Assembly (NCBI RefSeq): GCF_030384885.1
Contig: NZ_CP128613.1
Strand: one strand, 5' to 3'
Length of the DNA stretch: 64,000 nucleotides
Source: Escherichia coli
GTDB lineage: Bacteria; Pseudomonadota; Gammaproteobacteria; Enterobacterales; Enterobacteriaceae
Position numbers: made by a program. Every line of letters begins with the position of its first letter. The stretch's first letter is position 1. Shown piece after piece: positions 14,301-17,300 of the stretch.

Positions 14301-17300
14301 GCCTGTCAGCGCCAGCGAGGATCTCGGCGCAGGTACGCATGTTGAGGTGATTGCGATAGAAGGGATAACGCTGATTATCCGTGCGGTCATCGCCTGATGC
14401 GACGCTGGCGCGTCTTATCATGCCTACAAAATATGCCCGAATCGTAGGCCAGATAAGGCGCTTGCGCCGCATCCGGCATATAGCCGAGTAGAGGCAAAAT
14501 TACTCTTCCCGGCCTTTACCCATACTTTTTTGGTCTTCATCCGGATAATGTTTTTTTAGATATTCCAGGACGTTTTTATTGACCTTGTGTTGCGTATACA
14601 CCCACCCTTTCCAGTAATCAGGCTGGTCCAGGTAAACTTCTGGCGGAATGGTGAAATCAGAAAGCGTTAACCATTCGGCTAATAGATCGGGGTTTCGTTT
14701 CTGGATTAACTGCAACAGCATAATCAGTGACATAGCTGAGGCAGGAGCCGTACTATCGCCACTTAAATATTTCCACACTGTTGACCGGTTCGAACGAAAA
14801 AGGATCGGTAGCAATGCCCGGTCCAGATTCATTTCATTAAAAATCTTCTCAAATTCATTCATTTAAATTTTCCTGCCTGGCGTAAACCTCTTAAAAATTG
14901 AGATTTATCAAAGAAACGCATTTTAGCACACATCAGGAACTGCTTCACGTTTAGTCCAGAAACAGAATTTATTTCGCTTATCAAAACAAGTCTTTACTCT
15001 TTTTTACATTAAAAGAGCACGAAATGTTTTCCTTTTTAATTTATAAAAGAAACATTTTTTGTTTCTTATTTGTGGTGTTTACGCTTACACCAGACAAAAA
15101 TGTGCTTTACATCACACAAATGGCGGCGTAGATTTCGATTAAATTGCAACGTAGTTTATTTCTTAAAACAATATTATTTGTTTCTTATAGAAACATTAAT
15201 GCGACTTATTTTGAACAAGAGAAAATGAATGAAAACTGTAAACGTAGCTTTACTGGCACTCATAATTTCAGCAACATCCAGCCCTGTTGTTTTAGCTGGT
15301 GATACCATTGAAGCGGCGGCAACAGAGCTTTCAGCCATTAACTCTGGCATGTCGCAATCGGAGATTGAGCAGAAGATTACCCGCTTTTTAGAACGCACCG
15401 ACAACAGCCCCGCTGCATATACCTATTTGACTGAACATCACTACATCCCTTCTGAAACACCTGATACCACTCAGACTCCCCCTGTCCAGACAGATCCTGA
15501 CGCAGGACAAAAAACCGTTGCCGCTACAGGTGATGTACAGACAACCGCCCGTTATCAGAGCATGATCAACGCCCGACAGTCTGCGGTAACTGATGCCCAG
15601 CAAACGCAAATTACAGAGCAACAGGCGCAGATCGTAGCCACACAAAAAACGCTCGCCGCGACTGGAGATACGCAAAATACTGCGCATTATCAGGAGATGA
15701 TTAATGCCAGACTGGCGGCTCAAAATGAGGCTAATCAGCGCACTACCACGGAACAAGGGCAGAAAATGAATGCACTGACAACCGATGTGGCAGCACAACA
15801 GCAAAAAGAAAGGGCTCAATACGATAAACAAATGCAAAGTCTGGCGCAGAAGTCTGTCCAGGCACATGAGCAAATTGAAAGTCTGAGACAAGATTCCGCA
15901 CAAACGCAGCAACAGTTAACCAACACCCAAAAACGGGTCGCAGATAACAGCCAACAAATTAACACGCTCAATAACCATTTCGATTCTCTGAAAAACGAAG
16001 TTGAGGACAATCGTAAAGAAGCCAATGCGGGAACTGCATCTGCCATCGCTATCGCTTCACAACCACAGGTGAAAACCGGTGACTTTATGATGGTGTCTGC
16101 AGGAGCGGGAACGTTCAACGGTGAATCTGCGGTGTCTGTCGGAACATCATTTAATGCTGGAATTCATACAGTAATTAAAGCGGGAGTCTCTGCGGATACA
16201 CAATCTGATTTCGGCGCGGGTGTCGGCGTGGGGTATTCGTTCTAATTTTAATAGCAATTTCTTATTCGCAATTTTCCGTACATTATTTAAGGTTAACAAT
16301 GATGAATAGCTCCATTAAATCGTTTTCCCTGCTGGCGGTTATATTACTGGCTGGCTGTAGTTCACCCACTTCCCGCATCGCAGATTGCCAAGCGCAGGGA
16401 GTCAGTCATGACACCTGTTATCTCGCAGAACAACAGCGTCAGGCGGCTATTTTAAGTGCATCAGAAGCACAGGCATTTAAAAATGCAGAAGCCGCACAAC
16501 ATGCCCAGGCCGCTAAAAAATCTATTTATAAAGGATTTGGCGTCACCTTCAGAATGAGCAGTAAGAACTTTGCTTATCTCAATGATTCATTATGTGCCAT
16601 AGATGAAGATAATGCCGATGCCACGGTTTATCAGTCGGGTCTGTATAACGTCATTGTTTATCATCACACAGGAAAAGTAGCCTTAATGAAAGAAGGCCAG
16701 TTTGTGGGTTATTTAAAATGAAACTCACGCTTATACATATTATGATTATTGGCGCTTTTATCTTTGCATTCTTGCAAGTGGTATTATTAGCCTCCCTGGT
16801 TCACGCTGTGAATGTTAACAACGAAATCCAGGAAGGCTTATTTCAGTCGGGGCGCATTATGGTAGAAAGTTTGCAGCATATTCTGTCTGTGCAACCGGGG
16901 ATTAACGGGTAAGAGCACCGCTTCCATTTATAGAGCAATAGTCACCCGCGTAATTTTCTGGCACAGTTCAGGGAACTGAAATTTTGGCTAAGGAGTAGCC
17001 ATGCTTTTTCCCTGTCGAAAACCTGAAGTACGTCTGCTGAAAAATACCGCTGCGGGCGTCATTTTTTCGGTGAAGTCAGGTAAAGGATTTCTGCGTCAAT
17101 GTGTGATTTACGATCCGCACCCTTATGGGCTTATCCGTTCGCTCTGCTGGCAGGATGTCCCGTTAATACGTTTCTGGTCCGAGGCTGGCTGCCCCACCTG
17201 TGCGGAATTTGTCTACAGCGGTTTTGCGGATGATGAACAGGGAGCCGCCCGGTTTTTGTCTGCTCTCGAAAACTGGAATCGCCCGTGGTCTGGCATGACG

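What the first reader, a model, noticed from the sequence alone, without database searches (positions are those of the whole stretch)
15500..15740. Internal tandem repeat in the YadA-like protein stalk
The stalk contains two ~40-aa tandem units, QKTVAATGDVQTTARYQSMINAR... and QKTLAATGDTQNTAHYQEMINAR.... Such repeats in autotransporter stalks vary in copy number between strains and change stalk length.
Basis: seen in the sequence. Interest (0 to 1): 0.35.

Follow-up and report, generated by a model that had tools for sequence, protein, structure and literature searches.

The report
Old two-copy repeat in adhesin stalk
A small E. coli surface-fibre protein carries a real but ancient, diverged duplication of a 45-residue stalk segment that is fixed at two copies in E. 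coli, so it is an ordinary structural module and not a variable repeat.

Summary
The 338-aa ORF at 15229-16245 (+) has a Pfam YadA_anchor C-terminus. It contains exactly two tandem 45-aa units, at nt 15508-15642 and 15643-15777. The self-alignment score is 130, against 38±6 for shuffles. Each unit has a conserved 23-aa core (QKTvAATGD.Q.TA.YQ.MINAR, 18/23 identical) followed by a Gln-rich spacer.

The copies are old: 58% nucleotide identity, and most core differences are synonymous. Tandem Repeats Finder does not detect them.

- Both allele classes in complete E. coli genomes are fixed at two units (1029/1030 and 351/351).
- Among 118 complete Escherichia-type cluster representatives, 110 have two units, 7 have three and 1 has one. 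The three-unit forms are E. ruysiae and an E. marmotae-like group, with recently duplicated units of 88-96% nucleotide identity.
- Unit length differs between alleles as 38, 45 or 52 aa, that is in whole heptads.
- Most length variation comes from a different ~121-aa module, which this allele lacks.

AlphaFold2 breaks the stalk helix at the G-D of both cores. The heptad signal is absent from the repeat region and strong downstream.

Side finding: this gene is Z0639, published as the "transcriptional activator GmrA". That conflicts with its signal peptide and outer-membrane anchor.

The parts
15229..16245 (+). Gene for a 338-aa YadA-family trimeric autotransporter. It is the orthologue of O157:H7 EDL933 Z0639 ('gmrA') in O-island 29, between ybbJ and cueR.
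   Evidence: The ORF is listed and Pfam YadA_anchor matches. It is 94.8% identical over 1017 nt to the EDL933 gene (H61). The published gmrA deletion primers flank exactly that CDS in EDL933, and one of them maps to window 15190-15228.
15229..15297 (+). Probable Sec signal peptide (aa 1-23, MKTVNVALLALIISATSSPVVLA|GD).
   Evidence: Assigned by inspection of the translation: Lys, a hydrophobic run, then V-L-A. The pattern is conserved across alleles. No signal-peptide predictor was available.
15298..15507 (+). Small conserved N-terminal domain (three short helices, aa ~27-69) followed by a Pro/Thr-rich linker (aa 70-93).
   Evidence: AlphaFold2 monomer model: helices 27-34, 43-56 and 61-69 with pLDDT ~77; residues 76-103 have pLDDT <50. 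The alignment shows many invariant columns in aa 25-72. No Pfam head domain matches.
15508..15642 (+). Repeat unit 1 (A-type, aa 94-138): a 23-aa core at 15508-15576 (QKTVAATGDVQTTARYQSMINAR) followed by a 22-aa Gln-rich spacer.
   Evidence: The unit HMM matches with E 1.3e-24.
15643..15777 (+). Repeat unit 2 (B-type, aa 139-183): a core at 15643-15711 (QKTLAATGDTQNTAHYQEMINAR) followed by LAAQNEAN..., the tail typical of the last unit.
   Evidence: The unit HMM matches with E 1.4e-26. The B-type unit is always the last unit in homologues.
15778..16062 (+). Canonical heptad coiled-coil stalk (aa 184-278).
   Evidence: Hydrophobicity power at period 3.5 is 67.6 here, against 1.9 in the repeat region aa 88-183. 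AlphaFold2 gives a continuous helix 148-277 with pLDDT 82-96 for aa 161-260.
16063..16242 (+). YadA-like membrane anchor (aa 279-338).
   Evidence: Pfam PF03895 matches with E 5.3e-11, covering profile positions 1-60 of 60. PDB sequence matches: AtaA 9vnj E 2.5e-7, Hia 2gr7/3emo, YadA 2lme.

Best explanation
The feature is an ancient in-frame tandem duplication of one stalk module in a short, head-less trimeric autotransporter (Z0639 of O-island 29).

Each 45-aa module has two parts. The first is a strongly conserved 23-aa core, K-T-[VL]-A-A-T-G-D-x-Q-x-T-A-[RH]-Y-Q-x-M-I-N-A-R. The second is a Gln-rich spacer whose length differs between alleles in whole heptads, giving units of 38, 45 or 52 aa, all of the form 7n+3.

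Shown here:
- Both copies have been kept under purifying selection since the duplication.
- The copy number is fixed at two in E. coli.
- The upstream (A-type) unit has been re-duplicated recently in a few other Escherichia lineages.
- The helix is predicted to break at the G-D of each core.
- The repeat region lacks the 3.5-residue periodicity of the rest of the stalk.

Inferred:
- The units act as structural length and phase modules of the trimeric fibre. Each would add about 6-7 nm if helical (45 residues at ~1.5 A rise, from textbook coiled-coil geometry), and each heptad step about 1 nm.
- The conserved V-A-A-T-G-D segment forms a local non-helical discontinuity. It may be a beta-layer-like element like the IENKADKAD and MATKDDIAN nonads of other trimeric coiled coils, re-phasing the three chains once per unit.

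It is not a slippage-prone, strain-variable repeat in this allele.
For: The repeat is real and there are exactly two copies. The gene is a trimeric autotransporter: the anchor domain scores above the Pfam cut-off and matches solved anchors.

Old duplication under purifying selection:
- Nucleotide identity is 58%, yet the core is 18/23 aa identical and 10 of its 15 differing codons are synonymous.
- The core residues K, A, G, D, Y, Q, M, A are invariant across 19 diverse units.
- In the full-length alignment the core positions are the invariant or near-invariant columns of the repeat region.

Fixed at two copies in E. coli.

A-type and B-type units, and recent duplication of the A-type unit:
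- The last unit is always B-type.
- A-A nucleotide identity is 88-96% in three-unit alleles, against 51-70% for A-B in most alleles. In the E. ruysiae allele the A-B core identity reaches 83-84%.
- All these alleles lie at the same chromosomal locus.

Unit lengths of 38, 45 and 52 aa dominate. They account for 45, 11 and 52 of the 118 complete representatives.

Helix breaks fall at G146-D147, and the first helix starts at V103, just after G101-D102, in the monomer model. The same two positions break in all three chains of the low-confidence linked-trimer model.

There is no 3.5 periodicity in aa 88-183 (power 1.9), against 67.6 in aa 184-278.

The beta-layer sequence pattern comes from Hartmann et al. 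2016 (PMC4786415): hydrophobic-x-x / three beta residues with a small residue at the centre and D last in the examples / e-f-g. V-A-A / T-G-D / V-Q-T fits that outline.
Against: - No trimer structure was obtained. The linked-trimer AlphaFold2 model has pLDDT 44.5 and pTM 0.24 and says nothing reliable about chain packing.
- The monomer model is only moderately confident around the cores (pLDDT 58-77).
- The K/R at position e that the paper describes as broadly conserved in beta-layers is absent here, where the residue is V, T, A or P.
- No solved structure matches the repeat region by sequence.
- Conservation of the core could equally reflect ligand binding.
- A few alleles have unit spacings of 32, 39 or 41 aa, which do not fit 7n+3. 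The 32-aa case has lost its first core through a 20-aa deletion. The 39- and 41-aa cases are single metagenome or read-assembly sequences.
Confidence: 0.75

Rival explanations
1. The repeat is a strain-variable, recombination- or slippage-prone repeat (a VNTR-like stalk repeat). Its copy number changes between E. coli strains to vary stalk length or antigenicity.
For: Copy number does differ between Escherichia lineages: 7 of 118 representatives have three units and 1 has one. The extra A-type units are 88-96% identical at nucleotide level, so they are recent. A 577-aa allele carries a larger duplication that includes a unit.
Against: - The two units in this allele share only 58% nucleotide identity.
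- Tandem Repeats Finder does not see them.
- 1029 of 1030 and 351 of 351 complete E. coli genomes have the intact two-unit region. The single exception is an unrelated deletion.
- The three-unit state is fixed within E. ruysiae-type clusters rather than polymorphic.
Confidence: 0.05
2. The conserved 23-aa core is a ligand-binding site displayed twice on a head-less fibre, like the stalk-located binding sites of some trimeric autotransporters. The duplication would serve avidity rather than length.
For: - The core is under strong purifying selection while the spacers vary.
- The protein has no recognisable head domain, so any binding function would have to lie in the small N-terminal domain or the stalk.
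- More distant homologues keep one or two copies of the core in otherwise different stalks: P0123, P0125, P0126.
Against: - No ligand is known.
- Deletion of the whole island did not change adherence to HeLa or Caco-2 cells in the published study (PMC5826968).
- O145-type alleles have lost the first core through a 20-aa deletion and remain intact ORFs.
- This rival is compatible with the structural explanation rather than exclusive of it.
Confidence: 0.15
3. The protein is the cytoplasmic transcriptional activator GmrA, as published, and the repeated motif belongs to its DNA-binding region.
For: Yang et al. 2018 report reduced motility in the deletion mutant, an EMSA with His-tagged protein on the fliA promoter, and ChIP-qPCR (PMC5826968). 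The claim is repeated in a 2024 review (PMC10877973). Their deletion primers flank exactly this CDS.
Against: - The sequence has an N-terminal signal-peptide-like segment.
- It has a full-length YadA_anchor above the Pfam gathering score, homologous to solved outer-membrane anchors.
- No DNA-binding family scores above threshold in Pfam or NCBIfam. There are only weak SMC-type coiled-coil matches, for example 21 bits against a cut-off of 567.
- RefSeq names it a YadA family autotransporter adhesin.
- A motility phenotype can arise indirectly from loss of an envelope protein (inference).
Confidence: 0.05
4. The similarity is a chance product of Gln/Ala/Thr-rich coiled-coil composition.
For: The stalk is 18% Q, 16% A and 12% T. 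Weaker off-diagonals scoring 34-56 occur elsewhere in the protein.
Against: The score of 130 compares with a shuffle maximum of 60. The same two-unit structure is conserved in homologues down to ~50% identity. A profile of the unit finds only 10 proteins among 1.84 billion representatives.
Confidence: 0.01

Closest known systems
Z0639 / 'GmrA' of E. coli O157:H7 EDL933 (O-island 29)
   Same: It is the same gene at the same locus (fetA-qmcA-ybbJ-[120 aa]-adhesin-lipoprotein-...-cueR). It is 94.8% identical at nucleotide level, 338 aa long, and has an identical two-unit repeat.
   Different: The literature describes it as a transcription factor (PMC5826968, PMC10877973). The sequence features found here are those of an outer-membrane trimeric autotransporter. 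The papers searched do not mention the repeat.
Repetitive stalks of trimeric autotransporter adhesins (general knowledge: YadA 15-residue stalk repeats, BadA/Vomp neck-stalk repeats; Hia repetitive architecture, PMC2597055)
   Same: A YadA_anchor C-terminus, a coiled-coil passenger, and internal duplications that change fibre length between homologues.
   Different: There are only two diverged copies. The unit is 45 aa with no neck or head domains, no Pfam stalk or head repeat family matches, and the copy number is fixed within E. coli.
Beta-layer nonads in trimeric coiled coils (Actinobacillus OMP100 IENKADKAD; Thermosinus Tcar0761 MATKDDIAN; Hartmann et al. 2016, PMC4786415)
   Same: The outline hydrophobic-x-x followed by three residues ending in Asp matches V-A-A-T-G-D. 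A helix break is predicted at that point. Unit lengths deviate from multiples of 7 (38, 45, 52 = 7n+3).
   Different: Position e is not K/R. A nonad accounts for only 2 of the 3 extra residues per unit. No trimer structure is available. No sequence homology was detected.
Other E. coli trimeric autotransporters (UpaG/EhaG, Saa, Eib; from general knowledge, not tested here)
   Same: The same secretion type and anchor family.
   Different: Those proteins are much larger or carry head and neck domains. The unit profile found no copy of this core outside the Z0639-like group.

Membership tests
Trimeric autotransporter adhesin (type Vc secretion) | C-terminal YadA-like membrane anchor domain | tested here: met
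   Pfam PF03895 matches with E 5.3e-11 and 42.9 bits against a cut-off of 22.7, covering profile positions 1-60 of 60. Sequence matches to the solved anchors of AtaA, Hia and YadA.
Trimeric autotransporter adhesin (type Vc secretion) | N-terminal Sec signal peptide | tested here: met
   By inspection only: MK + hydrophobic run + VLA|GD, conserved in all alleles. No predictor was available.
Trimeric autotransporter adhesin (type Vc secretion) | Coiled-coil stalk leading into the anchor | tested here: met
   Period-3.5 hydrophobicity power is 67.6 for aa 184-278. AlphaFold2 predicts a helix 148-277 with pLDDT up to 96.
Trimeric autotransporter adhesin (type Vc secretion) | Obligate homotrimer displayed on the cell surface | not testable with these tools
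   The linked-trimer AlphaFold2 attempt was uninformative (pLDDT 44.5). Experiment is needed.
Trimeric autotransporter adhesin (type Vc secretion) | Recognisable head or neck domains (common but not obligatory) | tested here: not met
   No Pfam or NCBIfam head or neck family matches. The N-terminus is a ~45-aa three-helix domain.
Strain-variable tandem repeat (VNTR-like stalk repeat) | Head-to-tail tandem units | tested here: met
   Two adjacent 45-aa units with no gap.
Strain-variable tandem repeat (VNTR-like stalk repeat) | High nucleotide identity between units, allowing slippage or unequal crossing-over | tested here: not met
   Nucleotide identity is 78/135 = 58%. Tandem Repeats Finder does not detect the repeat.
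Strain-variable tandem repeat (VNTR-like stalk repeat) | Copy-number polymorphism among strains of the species | tested here: not met
   1029 of 1030 and 351 of 351 complete E. coli genomes keep the full two-unit region. Variation (one or three units) is seen only between lineages or species: 8 of 118 cluster representatives.
Beta-layer (alpha/beta coiled-coil) element | Sequence outline: hydrophobic a-b-c, three beta residues with a small central residue and terminal Asp, then e-f-g | tested here: met
   V/L-A-A | T-G-D | V/T-Q-T/N in both units, with G and D invariant in 19 units. The pattern is taken from PMC4786415.
Beta-layer (alpha/beta coiled-coil) element | K/R at position e (broadly conserved according to the paper) | tested here: not met
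   Position e is V, T, A, P or D in the units. The requirement is quoted.
Beta-layer (alpha/beta coiled-coil) element | Insertion of 2 or 6 residues into the heptad register | tested here: inconclusive
   Units are 7n+3. By manual register tracing, this fits a nonad (+2) plus one further residue, or a stammer-equivalent. The repeat region shows no clean periodicity.
Beta-layer (alpha/beta coiled-coil) element | Beta conformation of the three residues in the trimer, with the chains rotated by 120 degrees | tested here: inconclusive
   The models break the helix at G-D, but no confident trimer model was obtained.
Transcription factor ('GmrA') | A recognised DNA-binding domain | tested here: not met
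   Neither Pfam nor NCBIfam gives a DNA-binding family above threshold. There are only weak SMC-type coiled-coil matches far below cut-off.
Transcription factor ('GmrA') | Direct promoter binding in vivo | not testable with these tools
   Reported by EMSA and ChIP-qPCR in PMC5826968. It cannot be checked here.

The most novel reading that the evidence does not exclude
The 23-aa core (V-A-A-T-G-D ... A-R/H-Y-Q-x-M-I/V-N/D-A) may be a previously undescribed stalk element of short enterobacterial trimeric autotransporters. In this reading, a beta-layer-like break is followed by a polar Tyr/Gln/Asn core segment, and it recurs at spacings restricted to 7n+3 residues (38, 45, 52). Each unit would then re-phase the trimer by a fixed amount. 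This would be a natural periodic alpha/beta coiled coil with a long period.

Separately, the published assignment of this protein as the cytoplasmic transcription factor GmrA would then be a mis-assignment of an outer-membrane fibre.
Probability: 0.2. Interest if true: 0.45.

Novelty: new member of a known kind. Interest (0 to 1): 0.2.

Why it matters
As a repeat it matters little. It is an old, fixed duplication of a stalk module in a small trimeric autotransporter, the kind of modular growth already familiar in this protein family. It does not behave as a strain-typing or phase-variable locus in E. coli.

Two things give it some value.

1. The allele series forms a clean natural experiment. 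Units of 38, 45 or 52 aa, in one to three copies, all sit at one orthologous locus. This shows how coiled-coil fibres change length in heptad-preserving steps while keeping one conserved non-heptad core. That core is a candidate for a structural study.

2. Looking at the gene shows that the protein published as the flagellar 'transcriptional activator GmrA' (Z0639) has the sequence features of a secreted outer-membrane anchored fibre. EHEC researchers who use that annotation should know this.

Tried and rejected
- **DNA-level detection.** Tandem Repeats Finder on 13000-18500 does not report the repeat. The units are too diverged, so the protein-level analysis was used instead.
- **Third, degenerate unit downstream (aa 184-228).** The offset-45 diagonal runs on into it, but the unit HMM gives no significant third match (E 0.16, negative score). 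Rejected.
- **The one E. coli genome that seemed to have only the second unit (IR53017).** It has a deletion from purE into the adhesin gene and is annotated as a pseudogene. It is not a copy-number variant.
- **The 429-aa members of the E. ruysiae cluster as possible two-unit variants.** They are N-terminally shorter gene calls that still have three units.
- **Solved-structure search.** Only the anchor matches. Nothing matches the repeat region.
- **Pfam and NCBIfam.** No family covers the repeat. ATG16, AAA_13, SMC and DndD matches are sub-threshold coiled-coil noise.
- **Trimer modelling.** Three copies of aa 90-186 were joined with 50-residue Gly/Ser linkers. The result had pLDDT 44.5 and pTM 0.24, so it is unusable for chain packing.
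- **Unit-profile search of 1.84 billion representatives.** It returned 10 hits, one of them a spurious HEAT-repeat protein (P0127).
- **The 22-nt 'tandem repeat' just upstream of the gene (15155-15198).** No copy-number difference between alleles appears in the upstream alignment.
- **A run of six A's at the start of each unit (CAAAAAAC).** By general knowledge this is too short to be a convincing phase-variation tract. It was not pursued.
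Full report
**What is there**

The finding lies in a 338-aa ORF at window 15229-16245 (+). The window is E. 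coli. The 3.9-kb stretch between ybbJ and cueR is 99.9% identical to strain 2013C-4282, and RefSeq annotates the gene as 'YadA family autotransporter adhesin'. Pfam places a full-length YadA_anchor at aa 279-338 (E 5.3e-11, 42.9 bits, cut-off 22.7). The same region matches the solved anchors of AtaA, Hia and YadA. The N-terminus reads as a Sec signal peptide (MKTVNVALLALIISATSSPVVLA|GD; by inspection).

**Is the repeat real?**

Yes. Comparing the protein with itself, the diagonal at offset 45 aa scores 130 (BLOSUM62, ungapped). 100 shuffles gave 38.0 ± 5.9, maximum 60. The units are aa 94-138 (nt 15508-15642) and aa 139-183 (nt 15643-15777). Identity is 25/45 aa, concentrated in a 23-aa core (18/23): QKTVAATGDVQTTARYQSMINAR and QKTLAATGDTQNTAHYQEMINAR. 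An HMM of the unit finds exactly two copies and no third.

At DNA level the units are only 58% identical (70% in the core), and 10 of the 15 differing core codons are synonymous. Tandem Repeats Finder does not report them. This is an old duplication whose protein sequence has been conserved. It is not a young DNA repeat.

The gene occurs in 1414 of 5426 complete E. coli genomes, always on the chromosome. In every locus I fetched it lies in the same island: fetA-qmcA-ybbJ-[120-aa ORF, minus strand]-adhesin-140-aa lipoprotein-small ORF-(407-aa ORF)-cueR. This includes E. marmotae-type and E. ruysiae-type loci.

- *Within E. coli.* 1030 genomes carry the window-type repeat DNA at >=95% identity, and 1029 of them have all 270 nt in one piece. 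The exception is a purE-to-adhesin deletion pseudogene. 351 genomes carry the other main allele class, and all 351 have its complete 291-nt two-unit region. All 43 sampled alleles at >=94.8% identity are exactly 1017 nt. Copy number is therefore fixed at two in E. coli.
- *Across 118 complete cluster representatives.* These came from a search of 5.8 billion proteins, plus distant hits. An HMM count gives two units in 110, three in 7 and one in 1.
- *The three-unit forms.* They are an E. marmotae-like group (497 aa against the usual 459, a difference of exactly one 38-aa unit) and the E. ruysiae group (480 aa, 52+52 spacing). In the E. ruysiae group every member I read has three units.
- *Two unit types.* The A-type unit (…ARYQSMI[ND]ARQ…) lies upstream. 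The B-type unit (…AHYQEM[VI]NA[RG]L.AQN[DE]AN…) is always last. In three-unit alleles the two A-type units are 88-96% identical at DNA level. A-type and B-type units are 51-70% identical in most alleles. The A/B split is therefore ancient, and the extra A-type unit is a recent, lineage-specific duplication.
- *Unit length.* The spacing between unit starts is 38 aa in 45 representatives, 45 aa in 11 and 52 aa in 52. These are steps of one heptad, all of the form 7n+3.
- *Exceptions.* O145-type alleles have a spacing of 32 aa, because a 20-aa deletion removed the first core. Two single metagenome sequences have spacings of 39 and 41 aa.
- *Where most length variation lies.* Total protein length ranges from 325 to 594 aa, and most of that variation is outside the repeat. 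A ~121-123-aa module (RDNGQDTAIQ…NRSDIADQQ) is absent from the window allele and present once or twice elsewhere. There are also 13-14-aa indels in the C-terminal stalk.

**How widespread is the motif?**

A profile of 19 units was searched against 1.84 billion representative proteins. It found only 10 proteins with E <= 0.001. Apart from Escherichia Z0639-type proteins and fragments, the hits were:
- a 397-aa E. coli autotransporter with two degenerate copies, 52 aa apart;
- a 363-aa protein of Enterobacteriaceae bacterium FGI 57 with one copy;
- a 475-aa metagenomic protein with one copy;
- one spurious HEAT-repeat protein.

The core is therefore a narrowly distributed stalk motif of a small group of short enterobacterial autotransporters.

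**Structure**

An AlphaFold2 monomer model (25-sequence alignment, mean pLDDT 63.5) gives:
- a small three-helix N-terminal domain;
- a disordered Pro/Thr linker;
- a helix 103-145, a break at G146-D147, and a helix 148-277 with pLDDT up to 96.

The first helix begins right after G101-D102. Hydrophobicity shows a strong 3.5-residue period in aa 184-278 (power 67.6) and none in the repeat region (1.9).

The segment V-A-A-T-G-D-V-Q-T has the outline of the beta-layer nonads that Hartmann et al. 2016 described in trimeric coiled coils (IENKADKAD, MATKDDIAN; small central residue). It lacks the K/R at position e (PMC4786415). I tried to model a trimer by joining three copies of aa 90-186 with long Gly/Ser linkers. 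The model is unreliable (pLDDT 44.5), although all six cores again break the helix at G-D. The beta-layer idea therefore remains a lead, not a result.

**Most likely explanation**

The repeat is a duplicated structural module of the fibre. It consists of a conserved, probably non-helical or re-phasing core plus a heptad spacer of adjustable length. Each unit would add roughly 6-7 nm (inference from standard helix rise). The alternatives are weighed in the rival list:
- a strain-variable VNTR is largely refuted for E. coli;
- a twice-displayed ligand site is possible and not exclusive;
- part of a DNA-binding protein is unlikely;
- chance is refuted.

**Identity of the gene**

The lambda-Red deletion primers published for 'gmrA' (Z0639, O-island 29) flank exactly this CDS in EDL933 (L008 2501-3517). 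One of them maps with one mismatch to window 15190-15228. Yang et al. 2018 (PMC5826968) and a 2024 review (PMC10877973) describe the product as a transcriptional activator that binds the fliA promoter.

Here the protein has a signal peptide and an outer-membrane anchor. It has no DNA-binding family above threshold, only weak SMC-type coiled-coil matches. I cannot test the experiments, but the sequence argues for a surface fibre. The same paper reports that deleting the island did not change adherence to HeLa or Caco-2 cells.

**Verdict**

This is an ordinary feature of a known protein kind and of low interest. It carries one modest structural lead (the core and the 7n+3 units) and one annotation conflict worth flagging.

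Noticed in passing
window 15229-16245: This gene is the orthologue of Z0639, published as the cytoplasmic 'transcriptional activator GmrA' of O-island 29 (PMC5826968, PMC10877973). Its sequence has a signal peptide, a coiled-coil stalk and a YadA outer-membrane anchor, with no DNA-binding family above threshold.
   Followed up: partly
L001 2501-4285; L002 2501-3916; alignment A2 columns ~113-560: Other alleles at this locus carry a ~121-123-aa module (RDNGQDTAIQ...NRSDIADQQ). It is absent from the window allele and present once or twice elsewhere, and it accounts for most length variation. RefSeq start-codon choices hide this: L001 is annotated as 349 aa although a 594-aa ORF is open, and L002 as 431 aa against 471 aa.
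   Followed up: partly
L005 vs L006 (aa ~330-345 of the 436-aa allele); also the E. ruysiae-type alleles: There is a 14-aa (two-heptad) indel in the C-terminal stalk, in a segment bounded by a QDSAQ direct repeat in the long allele (L005). It is another heptad-preserving length change.
   Followed up: no
window 14863-15228 (intergenic region, upstream of the adhesin gene): This AT-rich region has recurring AGAAAC/GTTTCT half-sites. They include AAGAAACA-N5-TGTTTCTT (15047-15067) and TGTTTCT-N3-AGAAACA (15179-15195), and they are partly conserved across alleles. The region lies between the adhesin gene and a divergent 120-aa ORF (14500-14862, minus strand) whose sequence looks helix-turn-helix-like by eye. 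The sites may be operators, or they may be chance in AT-rich DNA.
   Followed up: partly
window 17001-18224: A 407-aa ORF next to cueR has no Pfam or NCBIfam match. The island version that includes it is found in only 160 of 5426 complete E. coli genomes, and EDL933 lacks it.
   Followed up: no
window 13580-13675: A 33-nt tandem repeat (2.9 copies, 73% matches) lies inside qmcA. It encodes the repeated ILKAEGE(K/R)QS segment of the SPFH protein.
   Followed up: no
window 16299-16721: The 140-aa ORF downstream of the adhesin has a lipobox (LLAGC). It gives a weak, sub-threshold match to the conjugative lipoprotein TraV (E 8.5e-4, 20 bits against a cut-off of 44.75). It is conserved next to the adhesin in every locus seen.
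   Followed up: no
L009 (E. coli IR53017, NZ_CP064103.1 3851129-3854254): This genome has a deletion joining a truncated purE-like gene directly to the middle of the adhesin gene. Only the second repeat unit onwards remains, and the gene is annotated as a pseudogene.
   Followed up: yes
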